A stretch of DNA of 23,837 bases from IMG/VR virus record IMGVR_UViG_2534681835_000037, positions 1-23,837 of that record; one strand, written 5' to 3'. A program made the translations under genes and the position numbers. This stretch comes from a virus (lineage: Duplodnaviria; Heunggongvirae; Uroviricota; Caudoviricetes). Below are positions 8,504 through 16,526 of this stretch, one piece after another (position 1 is the first letter of the stretch; every line of letters starts with the position of its first letter). The notes beneath the pieces are model-generated. The model saw only the letters and a program-made list of their open reading frames with translations. It was not told the origin of the DNA and ran no database searches.

Positions 8504-9193
8504 ATGAGTTTGATTGATTTAAGAGATGAATACGAAGAAAGAGCAAGAGATATTATGGAATTGCTTTCTCTTGCGTCATCTTTAGAGGCTCAGACTCAGC
8601 AGTTAGATCAGCAAACGCATAAAGATGAAATAGAATCAAATACCCTTAGGGTTAACATTTTAAAATCATCCGTGCACATGATGCTGTACAATCAGGTTGA
8701 AAACACTGCCAGAGGATGCATTGAGTCAATTTATGACCATTTGCAAGATAATGAAGTAAATTACGCATCACTCAGGGAGAAATTCCAAGTAAATATCTTG
8801 CACCGTATCATTTCAGATAATGAATCGGGAAAATCTCTTTATCAAAAAATTGGTTCCGATATATCTAAAAGGATCATTTCAGCCTCATTAAACATACGTA
8901 AAGAATTCAATGGTAATGTTTGCAAGTCTGTATTGCACAAAATAACACAAGCTTACGGAATAACTGTTGCAAACTCACCAGAGTGTAGAAATGGTGTTGA
9001 CTTAGATTTACTTAAAGATATCAGAAATGAGCTGGCACATGGAAGTACCAGCTTTTCTAAAAAAGGTCAAATAGACCCTTTAGAAGAAGTCAAATCGAGG
9101 TCAGAAAGAATTGATCTATATTTGCGTTTATTAATCAACTCAACAGAAAATTATATTACCTCTAACGGGTATTTATCCCCTCAACATGTCTGA
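8504..9193 (+). CDS. HEPN-like domain protein (putative RNase), translationally linked to the DUF262 gene
   Basis: 229 aa; start 2 nt after the DUF262 stop; C-terminal R-x4-H motif (DIRNELAHG) typical of HEPN active sites in a largely helical protein. Assignment is from motif and context only. Confidence 0.55.
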   Translation: MSLIDLRDEYEERARDIMELLSLASSLEAQTQQLDQQTHKDEIESNTLRVNILKSSVHMMLYNQVENTARGCIESIYDHLQDNEVNYASLREKFQVNILHRIISDNESGKSLYQKIGSDISKRIISASLNIRKEFNGNVCKSVLHKITQAYGITVANSPECRNGVDLDLLKDIRNELAHGSTSFSKKGQIDPLEEVKSRSERIDLYLRLLINSTENYITSNGYLSPQHV

Positions 9194-10202
9194 TAAATGT
9201 TTCCCCTATTATCTGACCAATTATAGGGGGAACAGCATTTCCAATCATTGTCCCCAATTTTTGGAATGAAAAAGGCGTCTCCTTGTCAAGGAATTTATAA
9301 TCCATTGGAAAGGATTGCAAAATCGCAGCTTCACGCAAAGTTATGGCGCGATTTTGCTCAGGATGGCCAAATCGTCCATTTCCATATCCATAACACTGGG
9401 TAGTTATCGTAGGGCTAGTATCGTCCCAAACCATCCGTCCATAAACGCTTTTATAGGTAGCACCTGAATTCTTTTTATGACAGTCTGCTCTAATTTCTTC
9501 AGGCCAGTCATCCCACGTACCACCAGGTAAAGAATGCATGATTCGTTTAAGATTGATATCCATCAATTTAGGCGAACGATGCAAGGGATCGCTTTCCAGC
9601 TTCTCACCTGCCCCTACTTTTGGCAACCTACCAATAGCATCCTTAACAGTAACTTTACGGCTAACTTTTTTTTGATCAAGGCTGATCGGCCCCAATTGGG
9701 AACCAATTAGAATTAATCTACGTCTATTTTGAGGTAAGCCATACTCAGAACATCTTACAACGTCGTACCACAAATGATATCCAAGAGTCTTTAATGCACT
9801 AACAAACCCTTCAAAAACCTTATGGTTTCTAAGTTGAGGAACATTCTCCATCGTCACAAGCTCTGGCATGACATCACTTACAAGCCTTTGAAACTCATAT
9901 AACAAACGCCACTTTGTATCGTCTTTACGGCTATTTGGATTACGATACTTGGAAAACGGTTGGCAAGGAGCACATCCAGCAAGCAATCTAATATTTCCTT
10001 CCTTGAACATAGCAGACACATCGCAGGATTGCAGTTCTGTAACTGACTGATTAATGAACTGCGTTAAAGGATTATTGCTCTCAATAGCAAAACGGCAGGA
10101 TTCATCAATATCAATACCATGAGAAACCTCAATCCCGGCTTTTTTTAGCCCAAAAGTTAAGCCCCCCGCACCACAAAAAATGTCTACTGCCTGAATGTTC
10201 AC
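9162..10202 (-). CDS. DNA (cytosine-5)-methyltransferase
   Basis: 346 aa; canonical m5C MTase motifs in order: I FCGAGG, IV GCAPCQPFS, VI TMENV, VIII QNRRR; GTG start at 10202 with GGAG RBS; 3' end overlaps the HEPN gene 3' end by 32 bp (convergent). Confidence 0.85.
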   Translation of the reverse strand: MNIQAVDIFCGAGGLTFGLKKAGIEVSHGIDIDESCRFAIESNNPLTQFINQSVTELQSCDVSAMFKEGNIRLLAGCAPCQPFSKYRNPNSRKDDTKWRLLYEFQRLVSDVMPELVTMENVPQLRNHKVFEGFVSALKTLGYHLWYDVVRCSEYGLPQNRRRLILIGSQLGPISLDQKKVSRKVTVKDAIGRLPKVGAGEKLESDPLHRSPKLMDINLKRIMHSLPGGTWDDWPEEIRADCHKKNSGATYKSVYGRMVWDDTSPTITTQCYGYGNGRFGHPEQNRAITLREAAILQSFPMDYKFLDKETPFSFQKLGTMIGNAVPPIIGQIIGETFIRHVEGINTR

Positions 10203-10634: not shown

Positions 10635-10891
10635 CAGCGCAGTACCTCCTGCACCAGTTTTTCAAACTTACCAACTCTGGTTTCCAGCTCTGCCACACAA
10701 TCCACCAGCTCATCCACCGCCTTTTGTGTGCGGTGTTTTGCCAGCAGCAGATCACGCAGCGCCGGAGTAAGCTGCTTGCGGAGCGTATCCTTTGCCACGC
10801 TCGTTTTTTCCATCTGTTCAGCACAACGAAGCATCTCCTGCGCCTGCCGACGAAGTTGTTCCGGTGAAACAGTGATTGCTCTGTTGTTCAA
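10634..10891 (-). CDS. Hypothetical protein, translationally coupled to Q (TGATG overlap)
   Basis: 85 aa predicted helical protein; stop overlaps the Q start, and its start overlaps the DnaB-like stop. Confidence 0.5.
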   Translation of the reverse strand: MNNRAITVSPEQLRRQAQEMLRCAEQMEKTSVAKDTLRKQLTPALRDLLLAKHRTQKAVDELVDCVAELETRVGKFEKLVQEVLR

Positions 10892-12279
10892 AATAAACGC
10901 TCCGTTTTACTGCCCGACATGCGGTTATTGCTGTATCTGCGCGGATTGCCCGGCGTCATGGGTGTGGAAAGAACCCGGGCACTCTCCTGGTCCACAGGCA
11001 GAAAATGTCCGTTATGAAAACGCCGGTAAATGGTCCCGAGCGTGCCATTACGCTGTTTCGTGATGTTGATTTCTGCTATGCCTCTGGCCTGAGTTTCCGG
11101 GTTGTATACCTCATCCCTGTAAAGCATCAGAATGATGTCGGCATCCGCCTCGATTTCCCCGGAGTTTTTCAGGTCCGAGTTCATTGGGCGTTTATTGGGT
11201 CTGGATTCCACGCCGCGGGAGAGCTGGCTCAGAGCAATCAGCGGAAAACCGCCGGATTTTGCCAGGCTTTTAAGTCCCTTTGAGATTTCCCCCACAGCAA
11301 GGTCGTGACGCCCCGTGCTGCGGGTTTTAATCAGGCCGAGGTAATCGACCACAACCAGCGCCGTTTCCGGGTGTTTCATCCGGTGGTGCTTCGTGGTTGC
11401 ACATATCTCATCAATGGTCAGGTTTGCCTGGTCCACCATCCAGATATTGCGACCGGTCATCCGTCCCACCCCTTGTGAGAAACGCGCCCAGTCTTCATCT
11501 TCAAAGTGAGTGACAGATTTCAGGCGTGATACCGGCATTCCTCCAGCCGCAGATACCATGCGTTCACCAATCTGGATGTTCGCCATTTCCATTGTGAACA
11601 GAAGAACACCATGCCCCTGCTCAGTCACCTTGTCGATGATATCCAGCGCCAGTTCGGTTTTGCCCATTGACGGACGAGCCGCAATGAACACCAGGTCGCC
11701 GGGCTCCATGCCACCTGTTTTTGCGTCCAGCTCCTCAATACCGGTCATCAACGTTCTGGATTTCTCCAGTCCCTGATTCCGGCATTCAACACGCTCAACC
11801 ACCTCCGGAAGCACATCATCAATATGTATCGGCTGAATAATGCCCTTTTCCGTCGACAATGAAGCCATCATGTTCTGCGCATCCTTCAGGACATCTTCAG
11901 CTGCTTCACAGGTATGCGCATCACGTAATTTCTGCAGCGCCTCATTCAGTGTTTTTTCTGCATCACGCAATGCAGCATTGCGCCGCAACGCTGCAACATA
12001 GTGCTCCAGTGAAGACTTCACCCAGGTTTTACGCCCGGTATCAGTAATCACCGGAGCAAGTTCCGGCATTTCATTACACAGCAGCACAGGATCAATCACA
12101 CCTGAAACACGAGCCTGTCGGCAGATGCCTGTGTAGATATCCCTATACGCTCGTACAGAAAAAACGTCCGCTGGCAGTGTGGCCAGAATATCCATCACTT
12201 CATGATCTGCCCCACGCAGAAAAAACGCGCCAATGACAGCGCCTTCCAGATCATCGTTACGCCATACTGGAGTGGTCAT
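10888..12279 (-). CDS. Replicative DNA helicase, DnaB family
   Basis: 463 aa; Walker A (ARPSMGKTELAL), RecA-like C-terminal domain and DnaB-like N-terminal domain; ATGA overlap with the upstream DnaC-like gene. Confidence 0.85.
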   Translation of the reverse strand: MTTPVWRNDDLEGAVIGAFFLRGADHEVMDILATLPADVFSVRAYRDIYTGICRQARVSGVIDPVLLCNEMPELAPVITDTGRKTWVKSSLEHYVAALRRNAALRDAEKTLNEALQKLRDAHTCEAAEDVLKDAQNMMASLSTEKGIIQPIHIDDVLPEVVERVECRNQGLEKSRTLMTGIEELDAKTGGMEPGDLVFIAARPSMGKTELALDIIDKVTEQGHGVLLFTMEMANIQIGERMVSAAGGMPVSRLKSVTHFEDEDWARFSQGVGRMTGRNIWMVDQANLTIDEICATTKHHRMKHPETALVVVDYLGLIKTRSTGRHDLAVGEISKGLKSLAKSGGFPLIALSQLSRGVESRPNKRPMNSDLKNSGEIEADADIILMLYRDEVYNPETQARGIAEINITKQRNGTLGTIYRRFHNGHFLPVDQESARVLSTPMTPGNPRRYSNNRMSGSKTERLF

Positions 12280-13163
12280 GCAGCCACACCTCCAATATGC
12301 GCACGATAGCTGGGCCAGTTAAACGACAACCAGTTGCGTCCCCCGTCTGTGATCCTGTCGGCAATGCGGGGGCTGATGAACGCCCACAACTCTTCCGGTG
12401 AAAGGTTGCTGATCAGGATGGTGGGCAGGATGCTTTCGTACCGGGCATTGATAATTTCCTGCAAAATAGCCATTTCAGCCGCGCTACCAAACTGGACACC
12501 CACTTCGTCGATAATCAGCAGATCCAGTGATGCATAATGCTCAATCACCTCATCCGCAGTTTTTTCGCTGTCATTCCGCCAGCAGTTTTTCACAGCCCGG
12601 GTCAGGCGCATCACGTCGGTGATCTCAACACTGGCGAGATAGTTGCGGATGACATATTTTGCCATCGCAACCGCCAGGTGATTTTTACCGGTGCCACAAC
12701 TGCCAGTCAGCACGAGATTTGTGCCATTCTCCAGAACATCCGCCCAGTTTTCGGCATAGCGACGACAGGCAGCAAGATTTCTGGCTGCGTCAGGATTAAT
12801 CTCCTGATAGTTTTCAAACTCACAGTCACGAAAACGCAGTGCAATTCCGGCGTTATCAGTCAGTTCTTCCGCCTTCAGGGACGACAACTCCATAATCACA
12901 TCGTTGATTTCAGCACTCAGGCAGTGAGGACAGTGTGAAATTTTCTCTCTGTCCTCGCCATTACGATCCCCCCACACCAGAATATGCGTGTGATATTCGC
13001 CATGTTTTTCGCAATATCCGCGACCTTCACGCATCCGGCAGGAACGATAAGGCCACGGTTTTTCCCCAGTCTCCGCAAACGCCATCTCAGACCGTAACTC
13101 ATCCATCCGCGCCTGTAGTCTTGTTTGTTGTTCACGCAGGTTAAACGTCATCATCGCTGTCAC
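12276..13163 (-). CDS. DnaC-like helicase loader (IstB-like AAA+ ATPase)
   Basis: 295 aa; Walker A GSCGTGKNHLAVAMA, Walker B LLIIDEVG; N-terminal Cys/His-rich segment. Confidence 0.85.
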   Translation of the reverse strand: MTAMMTFNLREQQTRLQARMDELRSEMAFAETGEKPWPYRSCRMREGRGYCEKHGEYHTHILVWGDRNGEDREKISHCPHCLSAEINDVIMELSSLKAEELTDNAGIALRFRDCEFENYQEINPDAARNLAACRRYAENWADVLENGTNLVLTGSCGTGKNHLAVAMAKYVIRNYLASVEITDVMRLTRAVKNCWRNDSEKTADEVIEHYASLDLLIIDEVGVQFGSAAEMAILQEIINARYESILPTILISNLSPEELWAFISPRIADRITDGGRNWLSFNWPSYRAHIGGVAA

Positions 13164-13164
13164 C

Positions 13165-14157
13165 TCAGAATGTTAAGTTGTCACTGGATTTACCGAATTC
13201 GTCAGACATGGCACCAAGACCAGACAGGATATCTATCTGTCGCTGTCGCCCACCTCCGGGAGCGGCTGGCTGTTGCCAGAAATCTTCGAAGTGACGATCG
13301 GGTCCAAAAAACGTCGCGGTCTGCTTCACGAATTGTGTGCCGGTATTTCCTGTGGCACGTACCCAGGCGGCATAACGCCTCACGCCATCAAGCATGGTTT
13401 CGGGTGTCACACCTTCCCTGATTCGGGCTTTCCAGGCTTTGAAGGCTGCCGACTTGGAATTACCACCAGCACGTTTGGGGTATTCCTGCCAGGCCTGTTC
13501 AAATTCCGGTGAATATTCTTGTCGGGCAGAACGCGCTGGTGCAGACGCGTCAGCGGATGCGCCAATAGTGTTTTTAGTCTCCGTTGTAATCTCTGTAGTA
13601 ATCTCTGTATTTGTATCAACATTCGGCGTATCCCCTGTTCCGTTATGACGTTGGGTGGTGTTCCGTTTTAACGTAATAGCTGTGTCGCTGACTGTGTTAT
13701 TGCTGTTGCTTTCTGACGAAACAGAAGAAGGTGTGGTGATGGCAGCAACTGCCTGTGGGTTGATCCCGACAAACAAAATATTGCTGCATTTCACACCATC
13801 GAGCATTTCCACCGTACGTAAATCCAGAGTAATAAACCCGGCATCGCGAAGACGCTTCAGCGCATCTGCGGTTTCCCTTTTCCCAAAACCAAACTGCTCA
13901 GCAAACGCCTGATAGCTTCTTTGCAGCTTGTCACCCTGAAAACGCTTGCGATATCCCAGTAAAGCCCCGGTATGCTCATCCCGGACTTCTGTCGGGCGGT
14001 ACCAATAAACGATCTCTGAGAGCAGGGCGATAGCGGTCGCATCCGGACGACCACTGGGTAGCCGAATATGTTTCCACCAGTTCGCTGGTGTGACATTGCC
14101 GGAAATATTAATTTGACCAATAGCTATAACTTCCGGTGTGGGGGCGTAACGACTCAT
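13165..14157 (-). CDS. Replication initiation protein (O-like replisome organiser)
   Basis: 330 aa; first gene of the replication module; conserved-looking C-terminal region (EQAWQEYPKRAGGNSKSAAFKAWKARIREG); contains internal tandem DNA repeats (iteron-like) in its middle. Confidence 0.6.
   Translation of the reverse strand: MSRYAPTPEVIAIGQINISGNVTPANWWKHIRLPSGRPDATAIALLSEIVYWYRPTEVRDEHTGALLGYRKRFQGDKLQRSYQAFAEQFGFGKRETADALKRLRDAGFITLDLRTVEMLDGVKCSNILFVGINPQAVAAITTPSSVSSESNSNNTVSDTAITLKRNTTQRHNGTGDTPNVDTNTEITTEITTETKNTIGASADASAPARSARQEYSPEFEQAWQEYPKRAGGNSKSAAFKAWKARIREGVTPETMLDGVRRYAAWVRATGNTGTQFVKQTATFFGPDRHFEDFWQQPAAPGGGRQRQIDILSGLGAMSDEFGKSSDNLTF
13584..13617. repeat. Iteron-like tandem repeats inside the O-like gene (candidate replication origin)
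   Basis: GTAATCTCTGTA at 13586-13597 and 13598-13609 with degenerate flanking copies; encodes TEITTEITTE in the middle of the initiator, analogous to ori-lambda lying within O. Confidence 0.45.
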
Positions 14158-14453
14158 ACAGCCTCCTTACGCGGCATAACAATGGTGTAACCCCGGGCAG
14201 GCTGGAACCGGGCTTTTGCATCAATAGTGAGCGTTGCAATTTTTCGGATATGAAGATAACCAGCTCTTTCCAGTGCCAGGGTTTCCCTGAATATCGCTTG
14301 CTTAGAACAACAGCAGAAATCAGCAAGCACCCGATGATCAATAACTCTCTCGCCTTCACCGTCTGAAGAACCCGACATCAAAACACGCAACATAATCAGG
14401 CGCTGAATCGGGTTATCGAAAGCACATCCGCACACAAACTGAAAACAGTTCAC
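14154..14453 (-). CDS. Hypothetical protein (possible winged-helix DNA-binding)
   Basis: 99 aa; 4-bp overlaps with both neighbours, part of a translationally coupled chain. Confidence 0.45.
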   Translation of the reverse strand: MNCFQFVCGCAFDNPIQRLIMLRVLMSGSSDGEGERVIDHRVLADFCCCSKQAIFRETLALERAGYLHIRKIATLTIDAKARFQPARGYTIVMPRKEAV

Positions 14454-14674
14454 GCCACACCTCCCAGACGCTTAAACATTTTTCCAGACAGAAATACCGC
14501 CAGAGGGTAACTGATGGTGTAGCTACGCCCCTGTAGTTCGCACACGACTTTCTGGCTTTCAGCGTTGACTAGGCAAACCCGCAGAACGTGACCGTTGCTG
14601 GTGGCGAACCACTGCCCCACACGGGGGCAACGGTTGTATCGGTGATACAGGGAATTAACGATGTGGCGGATCAT
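14450..14674 (-). CDS. Hypothetical protein
   Basis: 74 aa; coupled by 4-bp overlaps to neighbours. Confidence 0.4.
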   Translation of the reverse strand: MIRHIVNSLYHRYNRCPRVGQWFATSNGHVLRVCLVNAESQKVVCELQGRSYTISYPLAVFLSGKMFKRLGGVA

Positions 14675-14865
14675 GGACGCACCTCCGCCGTAGTTACGTA
14701 TTTAACCGGGCTACCTTTCATTGAGATGGTTTCACACATCTCTGCCGCTTTCAGTTCCGCTGTTTTTCTGGATTTATAGCGACGGTGCCAGACAGATACA
14801 TCCGTGCGAACTGATACATCGTTTCTGTATTCCGTAGTGGAGATGATGATTTCGTAACTAATCAT
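14671..14865 (-). CDS. Hypothetical protein
   Basis: 64 aa; coupled by 4-bp overlaps to neighbours. Confidence 0.4.
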   Translation of the reverse strand: MISYEIIISTTEYRNDVSVRTDVSVWHRRYKSRKTAELKAAEMCETISMKGSPVKYVTTAEVRP

Positions 14866-15413
14866 GGGCGAACCTCCTTGTCAGAACCATTCAGCCTGGA
14901 ATCAACAAGTGCAGCGCCAAAAACAGCATCACCAACACGGTCGTACAGTTTGCTAGCCAGCGGAGATTCAACGGCCTTAAGCATTGGATAAAGCTGGCTT
15001 GTCCAGATTTGATGGATTTCACGCAAATGCAGGTATACGCCTCTGGCGTTTCGTGCGACAGCTGACATATCAACCGCGTCAGCACCAGATAAATTCTTCT
15101 CCATCTGGTTAAAGGCGTTGATGTATGCCTCTTTGAACCGGGCTGCACGTTTGCCAGTAAAGCCCATAGCAAGGAACGCGAAGCCATCGCGGGTGATTTG
15201 ATAGCAAGGTAGTTTGCGGCCTGTGCAATCGGTGTAATCACTGGGCTGAAAATTCAGCTCAGTGAATTCAACAGAGCACTCAAGCGTCTGGATTTTTTGA
15301 ATAACGTTTTTGTGCTGCTTGCAGAAATATTCGGCAACGGCCAAAGAAGAGGTAACAGCCTTCCCATGGATAACATCAATTTTAGGGTGAGTTTGGGTAG
15401 GGGTGGTTGCCAT
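14862..15413 (-). CDS. Phage regulatory protein, Rha family
   Basis: Rha-like N-terminal motif (KIDVIHGKAVTSSLAVAEYFCKQHKNVIQKIQTLE) begins right after the internal ATG at 15413, which has a GAGGA RBS. The ORF track extends the frame to 15710 (282 aa), but that extension has no family resemblance. Confidence 0.6.
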   Translation of the reverse strand: MATTPTQTHPKIDVIHGKAVTSSLAVAEYFCKQHKNVIQKIQTLECSVEFTELNFQPSDYTDCTGRKLPCYQITRDGFAFLAMGFTGKRAARFKEAYINAFNQMEKNLSGADAVDMSAVARNARGVYLHLREIHQIWTSQLYPMLKAVESPLASKLYDRVGDAVFGAALVDSRLNGSDKEVRP

Positions 15414-15795
15414 AGTGACATCCTCATGTGCGAATTTTGAAAACTCACCACATGGGACGCCAATCACAGAGGTGGTGAGACGTACAGGGTTGGCGTAACC
15501 GGTCGCACATGACCCCGGCGCATCTTTCGATGCCCCTGCACGCCCCACCATAATTTGGATGTGAGGAAACGTGCGCAAAAAAACCGCTGAAGCGCGGTTA
15601 TGCGCATGTGCGAATTTCAGGACGCCAATCCCGGCACCCGCTTTATAAGGTGCGGAGACAGTGTAACGTCCCGAAATTGCAGAATCAATATTTGGTCTTG
15701 AAATGATCATATAGCTGCTGATATCTTTAGAACTGTTCTTGGATGTTTCGGAGCCGTTTTATGCGAAACAGCTCCCCGTTATTGATGTTGAGTGA

Positions 15796-15819
15796 GCCGG
15801 GTTACTCCCGGCTTTTTTT
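15796..15819 (+). terminator. Intrinsic terminator on the plus strand, antisense to the early-right operon
   Basis: gccggg-ttact-cccggc hairpin (15796-15812) followed by TTTTTTT (15813-15819). On the minus strand it is preceded, not followed, by the run. Confidence 0.55.
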
Positions 15820-16526
15820 CATCGCTGCCAACCAATAACCTGAAATAACCCCATTTTCGGGTGATACCAGCGAGTCCCTCGCGGTTCTGCTTCCTCCATA
15901 ACCCGATAAAAAGCAGCCATAAACGGTTCCACAGCAACAATTGCGCGACGTGACAACAATCCGTCCGGCGTCATGAACTCATGTGTGTCTGTAGGAATTT
16001 GATAGGCGTTCACCAGATTGCGGCATTTATCATCTGACAAACCGGTTTTTGCTTTCAGTTGGCGATATCCGGCATAGCCCTCACGAATAGTGCCCTTTTT
16101 AATTTGCTCGACTGTTTCAGCAACGTGGCTGACTTTTTCTTCCACCTGAGTGATCCGTTTCTGTTGGCGAACGGCTTCAAGAGCCATCGCGGCAACCATT
16201 TCGATTTCGCTCATTGGCTTACGGATCTGTTCTTCCAGTTCGCGCCAGCGATCTACCAGGCGAGCTGTGAATTCAGGACAGAGCTGTGCGACGACAATGA
16301 TGCTGTCGCGCTTACCTCGTTCACCTTCGAATACATACGCGCTAGAAAATCGGCGAGGCCCAAGTGATTGTTTATTCTCAATTTCCACAGTCTGTGGAAA
16401 TTGGATGATTCCCTTTTTAGCCAGTGTTTCAATAGTTCTCTTAACACTATCTGGTCGGCTTCCCACCAGCTCTGCGATCTCAACGCTGGTCATGGATGCT
16501 TTGCCGTTAAAAATTGCGGTGTTCAT
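15819..16526 (-). CDS. Rha/ORF6N-type antirepressor-family regulatory protein
   Basis: 235 aa; N-terminal motif (FNGKASMTSVEIAELVGSRPDSVKRTIETLAKKGII) typical of phage Rha/antirepressor N-domains; start overlaps the Cro-like stop (ATGA). Confidence 0.5.
   Translation of the reverse strand: MNTAIFNGKASMTSVEIAELVGSRPDSVKRTIETLAKKGIIQFPQTVEIENKQSLGPRRFSSAYVFEGERGKRDSIIVVAQLCPEFTARLVDRWRELEEQIRKPMSEIEMVAAMALEAVRQQKRITQVEEKVSHVAETVEQIKKGTIREGYAGYRQLKAKTGLSDDKCRNLVNAYQIPTDTHEFMTPDGLLSRRAIVAVEPFMAAFYRVMEEAEPRGTRWYHPKMGLFQVIGWQR

What the first reader, a model, noticed from the sequence alone, without database searches (positions are those of the whole stretch)
13584..13617. Iteron-like tandem repeats inside the O-like replication gene
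Two perfect 12-bp copies of GTAATCTCTGTA (with degenerate flanking copies) lie in the middle of the initiator gene and encode a repeated TEITTEITTE linker. Lambda places its origin iterons inside O in the same way, so this is the probable replication origin of the prophage.
Basis: partly seen in the sequence, partly recalled or inferred. Interest (0 to 1): 0.45.

Follow-up and report, generated by a model that had tools for sequence, protein, structure and literature searches.

The report
Prophage replication origin inside initiator gene
The 12-base repeat is real and belongs to the prophage's replication origin, but it is not the initiator's binding site: it is an AT-rich element, conserved almost base for base in phage origins across several bacterial phyla, that lies just after the true binding repeats and is probably where the DNA strands first open.

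Summary
TACAGAGATTAC (gene strand) occurs twice in perfect tandem at 13586-13609, inside a 330-aa replication initiator gene (13165-14157, minus strand) of a lambdoid prophage of E. coli O111:H8.

This is very probably the origin, but the 12-mers are not iterons. The better iteron candidates are four dyad repeats spaced 22-23 bp apart at 13636-13719. Two are strong and two are weak. They are read in different frames, and their core (ACGTYnnAACGK) is shared by phages whose N-terminal winged-helix domain is at least 59% identical.

The 12-mers follow these repeats directly. The same 12-mer array follows unrelated iteron sets in more than 119 viral contigs, 123 GenBank phages and 69 bacterial species from about six phyla (locus GC 0.29-0.61). 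Its synonymous sites are frozen. In one phage it is read in another frame, and in one plasmid-like contig it is non-coding. It is the least stable duplex of the replication region.

The best reading is a lambda/SPP1-type intragenic origin in which the 12-mers form the unwinding and helicase-loading part. I found no description of this conserved 12-mer in the searchable literature. Function is inferred; nothing was tested experimentally.

The parts
13165..14157 (-). Replication initiator gene (330 aa): N-terminal winged-helix domain, disordered linker, C-terminal helical domain
   Evidence: ORF. PHROG 270 'replication initiation protein', E 4e-77. No Pfam or NCBIfam family above threshold. AlphaFold2 domain layout. 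Identical to WP_000092414.1 in E. coli O111:H8 strain 8E.
13732..14157 (-). Codes for the N-terminal domain (aa 1-142), a winged helix-turn-helix; presumed iteron-binding domain
   Evidence: pLDDT 60-85, with helices at 82-89 and 93-105 followed by a beta hairpin. Weak HTH_36 hit at aa 81-109. Only generic winged-helix fold matches. 41-56% identical to initiators of Geobacillus, Acinetobacter and Bacillus phages.
13522..13731 (-). Codes for the predicted disordered linker (aa 143-212); holds all the origin repeats
   Evidence: pLDDT below 30. Third-codon-position diversity among 50 distinct relatives is 0.000 over 13588-13677 and stays low to about 13468.
13704..13719 (-). Iteron candidate a (weak): TCGTCAGAAAGCAACA on the gene strand
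   Evidence: Member of repeat family D1, 75% identity. 3 mismatches to ACGTYANAACGGAACA. Varies among close relatives.
13681..13695 (-). Iteron candidate b (very weak, needs an indel): ACAGTCAGCGACACA on the gene strand
   Evidence: Found by eye at the 22-23 bp phase between copies a and c. Not reported by the repeat tools. A relative with 79% N-domain identity (L105) also has four phased positions.
13659..13674 (-). Iteron c (strong): ACGTTAAAACGGAACA, a hyphenated dyad
   Evidence: Invariant in the 8 aligned E. coli relatives. No third-codon-position variation anywhere in 13588-13677 among 50 distinct relatives. Core shared with phages of 59-79% N-domain identity (TTACGTTGAAACGTAA).
13636..13651 (-). 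Iteron d (strong): ACGTCATAACGGAACA; starts 23 bp from c, so it is read in another frame
   Evidence: Identical in the 8 E. coli relatives aligned and free of third-position variation. A few viral-contig relatives carry single substitutions (for example ACGTCGTAACGG in L041, ACGGCGAAACGG in L043).
13586..13609 (-). The finding: two perfect tandem 12-mers TACAGAGATTAC. A conserved AT-rich origin element, the proposed unwinding and helicase-loading site
   Evidence: Same array in phages of many phyla. Frozen synonymous sites. Least stable duplex of the region.
13574..13585 (-). Degenerate third 12-mer AACGGAGACTAA
   Evidence: The same edge copy recurs in relatives.
13560..13635 (.). AT-rich, low-stability segment that contains the 12-mers
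   Evidence: GC 0.35-0.40, the minimum of the profiled stretch 12500-14800. The least stable 36-bp windows of 12276-14453 start at 13582-13589, dG -39.7 against a mean of -50.1, sd 3.1.
13165..13521 (-). Codes for the C-terminal domain and tail (aa 213-330), presumed partner-recruiting module; exchanged as a unit between prophages
   Evidence: Helical domain at aa 213-285. 94% DNA identity to Stx1 and Stx2 phages whose N-terminal halves are unrelated, with the homology ending at 13608 inside the 12-mers.
12276..13163 (-). DnaC/IstB-like AAA+ helicase loader gene
   Evidence: Pfam IstB_IS21, E 1.7e-16. The best NCBIfam match is the DnaC model, but at 128.6 bits it is far below that model's cut-off of 357.
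10888..12279 (-). DnaB-family replicative helicase gene
   Evidence: Pfam DnaB_C, E 6.5e-74.

Best explanation
The 12-mers are one component of the prophage's replication origin. The origin is embedded in the initiator gene, in the stretch that codes for the flexible linker between the DNA-binding N-domain and the partner-recruiting C-domain.

The proposed order, in the direction of transcription (high to low coordinates), is:
1. Four dyad-symmetric iterons at 22-23 bp spacing (13719-13636; the two proximal ones are strong). Dimers of the winged-helix N-domain would bind these.
2. A 26-bp spacer.
3. The 12-mer array (13609-13574), the AT-rich and helically weakest spot.

I propose that the initiator assembly on the iterons stresses the adjacent 12-mers until they open. 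The C-domain then brings in the DnaC-like loader, and the phage DnaB-like helicase is placed on the opened strands.

What is shown: the repeat itself, its position, its low stability, the separate iteron family and its co-variation with the N-domain, and DNA-level conservation of the 12-mer across phyla.

What is inferred: origin activity, initiator binding, strand opening at the 12-mers, and the roles of loader and helicase.

The near-invariant sequence suggests the 12-mers are read sequence-specifically and are not merely AT-rich. What reads them is unknown.
For: **Position.** The repeats lie in the coding region for the pLDDT<30 linker, as the annotated iterons do in lambda O and as oriL does in SPP1 gene 38 (PMC6316719).

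**Iterons are distinct from the 12-mers.**
- Family D1 at 13636/13659/13704 has spacings of 23 and 45 bp, which are not multiples of 3.
- The motif occurs 6 times at up to 3 mismatches against 1.11 expected, 0 of 100 shuffles reach that number, and three of the hits are clustered here.
- Relatives with at least 59% N-domain identity share the core TTACGTTnnAACGTAA, while 39 of 40 other N-domain types lack it.

**Universal architecture.** 98 of 102 non-redundant arrays have a 21-24 bp periodic repeat in the 110 nt just upstream; control regions give scattered periods.

**The 12-mer is independent of the iteron type.** The same array follows different iterons in the Stx1 phage L001 (GGGAAAC repeats) and in Geobacillus, Acinetobacter and Bacillus phages. 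It was found in more than 119 IMG/VR contigs, 123 GenBank phage records and 69 species genomes (about 0.02 expected by chance, my arithmetic).

**DNA-level constraint.**
- In copies that were not used to find the arrays, the four-fold degenerate Thr third position is A in 104 of 115, and the Glu third position is G in 83 against A in 4. The same genes use ACA for 32% of Thr codons and GAG for 37% of Glu codons. Non-synonymous positions 5 and 9 vary the most.
- Third-position diversity is 0.000 over 13588-13677 in 50 distinct relatives, against 0.05-0.3 in the flanks.
- L172 reads the same DNA as YRDYYRDY within an intact 417-aa ORF.
- In L187 the array lies in non-coding DNA downstream of a plasmid RepA_C gene.

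**Unwinding element.** The least stable 36-bp windows of 12276-14453 start at 13582-13589, 3.3 sd above the mean. In 49% of 95 loci the least stable window within 450 bp either side coincides with the array, with a mean z of 2.1.

**Precedent.** In lambda, in-frame 12-15 bp deletions in the AT-rich region just after iteron 4 were isolated as origin mutations (ori95, ori96), while the O protein they encode still complements (PMC6022878).
Against: - There is no experimental origin mapping for this phage or for any close relative.
- In this window only two of the four proposed iterons are convincing. Self-similarity at period 23 is weak (0.39).
- The array's GC (about 0.33) is only moderately low, and 1.5% of 36-bp windows elsewhere in the 23.8-kb window are less stable.
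- 185 of 188 arrays are in the same T-E-I/N-T frame, so a role for the peptide cannot be excluded. The alternative-frame and non-coding cases are single examples, one of them from a MAG.
- A passive unwinding element would not need an invariant sequence, so the simple unwinding-element model does not explain the main observation.
- The arrays were collected by exact match to two copies, which biases the census toward perfect arrays.
Confidence: 0.65

Rival explanations
1. The 12-mers are the iterons: the initiator's N-domain binds them directly.
For: They are tandem direct repeats in the middle of the initiator gene. Nearly all arrays sit next to one N-domain superfamily: 151 of 153 proteins are linked by BLAST at 25% identity or more. 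A conserved part of that domain could therefore recognise them.
Against: Iterons are specific to their initiator, yet the same 12-mer accompanies dozens of different 22-23 bp repeat families and N-domains that are only 25-50% identical. A better iteron set lies next to them and tracks N-domain similarity. Copy number is unstable even among near-identical prophages, ranging from 1 to 4. The 12-mers are head-to-tail with a 12-bp period and lack the dyad symmetry seen in all the neighbouring iterons.
Confidence: 0.07
2. The repeat matters only as protein: a T-E-I-T low-complexity linker that grows and shrinks by replication slippage, with no function as DNA.
For: The unit is 12 bp, which is 4 codons. 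185 of 188 arrays are in the same frame. It lies in a predicted disordered linker. Copy number varies.
Against: Synonymous sites are more conserved than amino-acid-changing sites and depart strongly from the genes' own codon usage. The bases are nearly identical in hosts with GC from 0.29 to 0.61 and across phyla, while the flanking protein domains are only 40-56% identical. L172 translates the same DNA in another frame, and L187 has it outside any long ORF. In lambda the equivalent stretch is dispensable for O protein function, while in-frame deletions within it were isolated as origin mutations (PMC6022878).
Confidence: 0.08
3. The 12-mers are conserved mainly as a recombination joint, a shared 'linker' sequence that lets phages swap the N-domain-plus-iteron module against C-terminal, loader and helicase modules.
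For: DNA homology to Stx1 and Stx2 phages with an unrelated N-terminal half begins exactly inside the 12-mers, at window 13608. 25 different C-domain clusters are joined to the array. L172 and L145 share a C-domain that is 79% identical behind different upstream halves.
Against: Selection for exchangeability cannot explain base-for-base identity between phages of E. coli, Bacillus, cyanobacteria and CPR bacteria, which have no opportunity to recombine with one another. It also does not explain the low duplex stability or the fixed position next to iterons. Recombination at the array is more simply a consequence of its conservation.
Confidence: 0.08

Closest known systems
Phage lambda ori-lambda inside gene O
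   Same: The origin lies inside the initiator gene, in the part coding for the linker between the DNA-binding N-domain and the partner-binding C-domain. There are four hyphenated-dyad iterons about two helical turns apart, followed in the direction of transcription by an AT-rich region that unwinds (PMC6022878; PMC5043065). Iterons co-vary with the N-terminal half, and the C-terminal half is exchangeable.
   Different: The protein is not a Pfam Phage_rep_O member. The partners are a DnaC-like loader and the phage's own DnaB-like helicase, not P with host DnaB. Lambda's AT-rich region (ACAAAAGACACTATTACAAAAGAAAAAAGAAAAGATTAT) is not built of TACAGAGAWTAC units and resembles them only loosely.
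Bacillus phage SPP1 oriL inside gene 38 (replisome organizer G38P)
   Same: Short direct repeats bound by the organizer are followed by an AT-rich unwinding element, all within the organizer gene (PMC6316719). The AT-rich part is itself an in-frame tandem repeat, AACAATGAW three to four times. A phage with a window-type N-domain (0105phi7-2) carries the G38P-type C-domain Phg_2220_C.
   Different: SPP1 has 9-mers of a different sequence and no TACAGAGAWTAC. Its N-domain did not come up as a relative. The window protein lacks Phg_2220_C.
Repeated 13-mers in the unwinding elements of E. coli oriC and plasmid RK2 oriV
   Same: Short AT-rich tandem repeats lie next to the initiator-binding array. 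Their exact sequence, number and arrangement matter for opening (PMC5043065).
   Different: Those 13-mers work with DnaA (and TrfA for RK2) and are conserved only within narrow host groups. The 12-mer here accompanies winged-helix phage initiators and is conserved across phyla. Nothing is known about what binds it.
'Replisome organizer' genes of phages of Gram-positive bacteria, whose low-complexity middle reflects origin repeats (TIGR01714 / Pfam Phage_rep_org_N; lactococcal phages such as Tuc2009 and TP901-1). Recalled from memory, not verified here.
   Same: The idea that direct DNA repeats acting as an origin show up as a low-complexity segment in the middle of the initiator protein.
   Different: The window protein gave no hit to these models. 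I could not check whether those descriptions mention the conserved 12-mer. No paper in the searchable library contains the 12-mer strings in a phage context.

Membership tests
Lambda/SPP1-type intragenic phage origin (iterons plus AT-rich region inside the initiator gene) | Lies inside the initiator gene, in the linker-coding segment | tested here: met
   The repeats at 13574-13719 fall within aa 143-212, which has pLDDT below 30.
Lambda/SPP1-type intragenic phage origin (iterons plus AT-rich region inside the initiator gene) | Three or more direct repeats about two helical turns apart that co-vary with the initiator's DNA-binding domain | tested here: met
   13636, 13659, (13681) and 13704 have start spacings of 23, 22 and 23 bp; two copies are strong and two weak. 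The core is shared only with N-domain relatives. 98 of 102 related loci show a 21-24 bp period.
Lambda/SPP1-type intragenic phage origin (iterons plus AT-rich region inside the initiator gene) | AT-rich, easily melted region next to the iterons on the downstream side | tested here: met
   GC minimum of 0.35 at 13560-13619. The least stable 36-bp windows start at 13582-13589.
Lambda/SPP1-type intragenic phage origin (iterons plus AT-rich region inside the initiator gene) | Supports initiator-dependent replication; initiator binds the repeats | not testable with these tools
   Needs a plasmid replication assay and footprinting.
Iterons (initiator-binding repeats), applied to the 12-mers themselves | Sequence is specific to the cognate initiator and changes with its DNA-binding domain | tested here: not met
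   The same TACAGAGAWTAC accompanies unrelated iteron families and divergent N-domains.
Iterons (initiator-binding repeats), applied to the 12-mers themselves | Stable number and helical phasing of sites | tested here: not met
   1 to 4 perfect copies among near-identical prophages and 2 to 6 copies across loci. The repeat is head-to-tail with a 12-bp period.
Unwinding element made of short repeats (as the 13-mers of oriC and RK2) | AT-rich, low-stability tandem repeats flanking the initiator-binding array | tested here: met
Unwinding element made of short repeats (as the 13-mers of oriC and RK2) | Site of initiator-dependent strand opening and single-strand capture | not testable with these tools
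   Needs KMnO4 or P1-nuclease probing and single-stranded DNA binding assays.
Lambda O protein family (Pfam PF04492 Phage_rep_O) | Sequence match to the family model | tested here: not met
   No hit at E up to 1 for the window protein. A relative (BtCS33) reaches only E 0.12.
SPP1 G38P-type replisome organizer | C-terminal Phg_2220_C domain | tested here: not met
   Absent in the window protein. Present in SPP1 G38P and in phage 0105phi7-2, which has a window-type N-domain.
PHROG 270 replication initiation proteins | Full-length profile match | tested here: met
   E 4.2e-77 over residues 2-329.

The most novel reading that the evidence does not exclude
The 12-mer TACAGAGAWTAC is a sequence-specific origin signal, not merely weak DNA. 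It would be read, as double- or single-stranded DNA, by something common to all these replicons: a conserved face of the winged-helix initiator superfamily, or the DnaB-family helicase or primase that must enter there. It would then be the phage counterpart of the oriC 13-mers or DnaA-trios, but conserved almost base for base across about six bacterial phyla and portable between initiators, loaders and even a plasmid replicon.
Probability: 0.35. Interest if true: 0.8.

Novelty: new variant of a known kind. Interest (0 to 1): 0.6.

Why it matters
Origins of replication are usually among the least conserved DNA elements, and each initiator has its own sites. Here a 12-bp unit stays nearly invariant next to ever-changing iterons. 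It is found in phages of E. coli, Acinetobacter, Bacillus, Staphylococcus, clostridia, cyanobacteria and candidate-phyla bacteria.

If this holds up, it has three uses:
- It gives a one-line sequence signature that pinpoints the origin in a large class of phages and prophages.
- It marks the exact joint at which replication modules are swapped.
- It offers a defined substrate for asking how winged-helix initiators that are not AAA+ proteins open DNA and hand it to a helicase.

For this window alone, the result is a well-supported origin assignment for an O111:H8 lambdoid prophage.

Tried and rejected
- **Domain searches on the initiator.** Pfam and NCBIfam gave no family. A PDB sequence search found nothing. 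Foldseek against PDB gave only generic winged-helix matches, none at E 0.001 or better, so no specific structural relative can be named.
It is absent; that DNA is GC-rich.
- **Literature.** Full-text search for the 12-mer strings found only unrelated primers. Searches for replisome-organizer origins and 12-bp repeats gave background papers only.
- **An unbiased distant sample of N-domain relatives.** The search for related loci with the N-domain alignment returned only near-identical E. coli prophages. These were useful for copy number and diversity but not as a distant sample. The unbiased sample is therefore only the 6 GenBank phages picked by protein similarity, all 6 of which carry the array.
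- **Single-linkage clustering of N-domains.** It chained almost everything into one group, so it cannot count independent N-domain families. Stricter cut-offs give 4 to 50 groups.
- **SPP1.** I checked whether SPP1, the experimentally studied replisome-organizer phage, carries the 12-mer. It does not.
- **Other readings of the array.** A promoter-like or hairpin-forming reading was considered by eye and dropped: there is no good -10 element and no self-complementarity.

Full report
**Context.** The window is 100% identical over the queried initiator gene to a lambdoid prophage of E. coli O111:H8 strain 8E, integrated beside mlrA. The finding lies in a minus-strand ORF, 13165-14157 (330 aa). 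Directly downstream are a DnaC/IstB-like AAA+ loader gene (12276-13163) and a DnaB-family helicase gene (10888-12279). The 330-aa protein matches PHROG 270 'replication initiation protein' over its full length (E 4e-77). It matches no Pfam or NCBIfam family, including lambda's Phage_rep_O.

**The observation.** It is correct. TACAGAGATTAC (gene strand) occurs twice in perfect tandem at 13586-13609, with one degenerate copy at 13574-13585. It encodes TEITTEITTE.

**What else is in the gene middle.** A second repeat family lies just upstream in the direction of transcription:
- ACGTCATAACGGAACA at 13636-13651
- ACGTTAAAACGGAACA at 13659-13674
- a weaker TCGTCAGAAAGCAACA at 13704-13719
- a very weak copy near 13681

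Start-to-start spacing is 23, 22 and 23 bp. Because 23 is not a multiple of 3, successive copies are read in different frames, so this is a repeat of the DNA and not of the protein. The GC minimum of the profiled stretch (0.35) and the least stable 36-bp duplex windows of the whole replication cluster coincide with the 12-mers: dG -39.7 against a mean of -50.1, sd 3.1. DNA further downstream is GC-rich.

An AlphaFold2 model built on 17 homologues gives three parts: a winged-helix N-domain (aa 1-142), a linker with pLDDT below 30 (aa 143-212, window 13522-13731), and a helical C-domain (aa 213-285). Both repeat families therefore lie in the linker-coding DNA.

**Close relatives.** Among 85 genes (50 distinct sequences) from E. 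coli genomes and viral contigs, perfect 12-mer copy number is 1, 2, 3 or 4 in 1, 42, 6 and 1 distinct genes. Third-codon-position diversity is 0.000 across 13588-13677, which covers iterons c and d, the spacer and the 12-mers. It is 0.05-0.3 in the flanks.

DNA homology to Stx1 and Stx2 phages whose N-terminal halves are unrelated starts exactly inside the 12-mers, at window 13608. Those phages carry four slightly degenerate 12-mers preceded by a different repeat, GGGAAAC five times.

**Distant relatives.** The N-domain is 41-56% identical to initiators of Geobacillus, Acinetobacter and Bacillus phages. All six that I fetched have, in the gene middle, 3-4 repeats at a 22-23 bp period. Examples are GGGGTGTGACGTTAGAACGTCA four times in Geobacillus, TCCTACGTTAGAAAGTACCACCC in IME-AB2, and CCTCCTACATTAGAACGTAAGA in Athena. 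In each, 2-4 tandem TACAGAGAWTAC units follow immediately. Their C-terminal domains differ: DnaB_2/DnaD-like, Phg_2220_C as in SPP1 G38P, or the window type.

**Census.** Exact search for two tandem units found:
- 69 of the species-representative genomes, where I estimate about 0.02 by chance from 596 Gb, both strands and 22 fixed plus 2 two-fold positions
- 123 GenBank phage records by BLAST

Hosts named in the records include Gamma- and Alphaproteobacteria, Bacillus, Staphylococcus, clostridia, Thermoanaerobacter, Halanaerobiales, a cyanobacterium and a Synechococcus phage. MAGs are labelled Chloroflexota, Nitrospinota, Gracilibacteria and Saccharibacteria; MAG binning is a caveat for those. 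Locus GC ranges from 0.29 to 0.61.

In 98 of 102 non-redundant loci the 110 nt just upstream of the array has its best self-similarity at a 21-24 bp period; control segments scatter. The upstream repeats are hyphenated dyads with an A/T-rich centre, like lambda's TCCCTCAAAACGAGGGA, but their arms differ from phage to phage. The window's core ACGTYnnAACGK recurs in relatives with at least 59% N-domain identity and in only 1 of 40 loci with other N-domain types. The 22-23 bp repeats therefore behave as iterons should. The 12-mers do not.

**DNA or protein?** 185 of 188 arrays are in the frame T-E-I/N-T, so frame alone does not separate the two. Three things point to the DNA.
- In array copies that were not part of the search pattern, the four-fold degenerate Thr third position is A in 104 of 115, the Ile/Asn third position is T in 97 of 115, and the Glu third position is G in 83 against A in 4. 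The rest of the same genes use ACA for 32% of Thr and GAG for 37% of Glu. The most variable positions are amino-acid-changing ones.
- In Thermoanaerobacter thermocopriae (L172) an intact 417-aa initiator reads the same bases as YRDYYRDY. Its C-domain is 79% identical to that of L145, where the frame is the usual one.
- In an alphaproteobacterial MAG contig (L187) three short repeats plus two 12-mers lie in non-coding DNA about 300 bp downstream of a plasmid RepA_C gene. No N-domain homologue is found within 8 kb.

The last two are single cases.

**Mechanism.** The layout is iterons, then an AT-rich element, inside the linker-coding part of the initiator gene and in the direction of transcription. 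This is the layout of ori-lambda and of SPP1 oriL, where the AT-rich part is described as the unwinding element (PMC6316719). In SPP1 that part is itself an in-frame tandem repeat. In lambda, in-frame 12-15 bp deletions just after iteron 4 were isolated as origin mutations, and the shortened O protein still complements (PMC6022878). Reviews note that in oriC and RK2 the unwinding element consists of 13-mer repeats whose exact sequence matters (PMC5043065).

I therefore read the 12-mers as the unwinding and helicase-entry part of this origin and 13636-13719 as the initiator-binding part. The near-invariant sequence is not explained by low stability alone. It suggests specific recognition by a shared component, but the data do not identify that component. 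The only protein part common to nearly all arrays is the N-domain superfamily, whereas C-domains fall into 25 clusters.

**Novelty.** An intragenic phage origin with iterons and an AT-rich region is a known kind. A 12-bp origin repeat conserved across phyla is a feature I could not find described. Older subscription literature could not be searched, so this is a cautious 'new variant'. None of the functional claims has been tested experimentally.

Noticed in passing
window 13608; also 13567-13569, 13273-13276 and 13247: Recurrent mosaic breakpoints of the initiator gene among 407 E. coli genomes. The C-terminal module (13165-13608) is joined to unrelated N-terminal halves exactly inside the 12-mers, and the extreme C-terminal tail is also swapped.
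   Followed up: partly
L187 (MKUL01000018.1, alphaproteobacterial MAG), locus 1870-2290 minus strand: Downstream of a plasmid RepA_C gene lie three 35-bp direct repeats (ACGCATAATTTGTCTTGCCCAAAGAGATTTTTT) and an AT-rich stretch. Then come three short repeats about 22 bp apart, two TACAGAGAWTAC units and a hairpin with a T-run, all outside any long ORF. This looks like a phage-type origin fragment in a plasmid-like replicon.
   Followed up: partly
L172 (Thermoanaerobacter thermocopriae NZ_BAZY01000001.1), 2063-3316 plus strand: An intact 417-aa initiator reads the conserved 12-mers in another frame (YRDYYRDY). Its iterons are 24-bp in-frame repeats coding SEGQND units.
   Followed up: partly
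L139 (Gracilibacteria MAG JALUWO010000501.1), around 1570-1862: The initiator ORF containing the 12-mers is continuous only if TGA is read as an amino acid, consistent with the alternative genetic code of Gracilibacteria. The phage or prophage appears to share its host's code.
   Followed up: no
window 14154-14453 (-): A 99-aa ORF overlaps the initiator start by ATGA. It matches only the N-terminal part of PHROG 4617 'replication initiation protein' (E 1.5e-28). It is absent at this position in at least one close relative (L003). Its role is unknown.
   Followed up: no
window 7344-10202: Defence-like cargo lies between the Q antiterminator gene and the late region: a DUF262 protein, a HEPN-like nuclease (MAE_28990 family) and an oppositely oriented C5 cytosine methyltransferase.
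   Followed up: no
window 14862-16526 (-): Two Rha-family regulator genes sit in tandem upstream of the replication genes. The first carries an N-terminal Ash domain fused to the Rha domain.
   Followed up: no
window about 6127-6453, and 22552 to the end: The prophage carries iraM (an anti-adaptor for RpoS degradation). It is integrated beside mlrA (yehV), which I recall is a site used by Stx phages in O157:H7. No stx gene is present in the window.
   Followed up: no
L135 (lambda) 520-560 and L136 (SPP1) 11579-12349: Lambda's AT-rich origin region (ACAAAAGACACT ATTACAAAAGAA ...) loosely resembles the 12-mer family and codes T-K-D-T-I-T-K-E. SPP1 oriL has in-frame 9-mers, AACAATGAW three to four times. 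In-frame tandem AT-rich repeats after the iterons may be a general design.
   Followed up: partly
window 13541-13554: A GC-rich imperfect palindrome (GCAGACGCGTCAGC) lies just downstream of the AT-rich element, within the stretch of reduced synonymous diversity (13468-13587). From memory, lambda also has a palindrome to the right of its AT-rich region.
   Followed up: no
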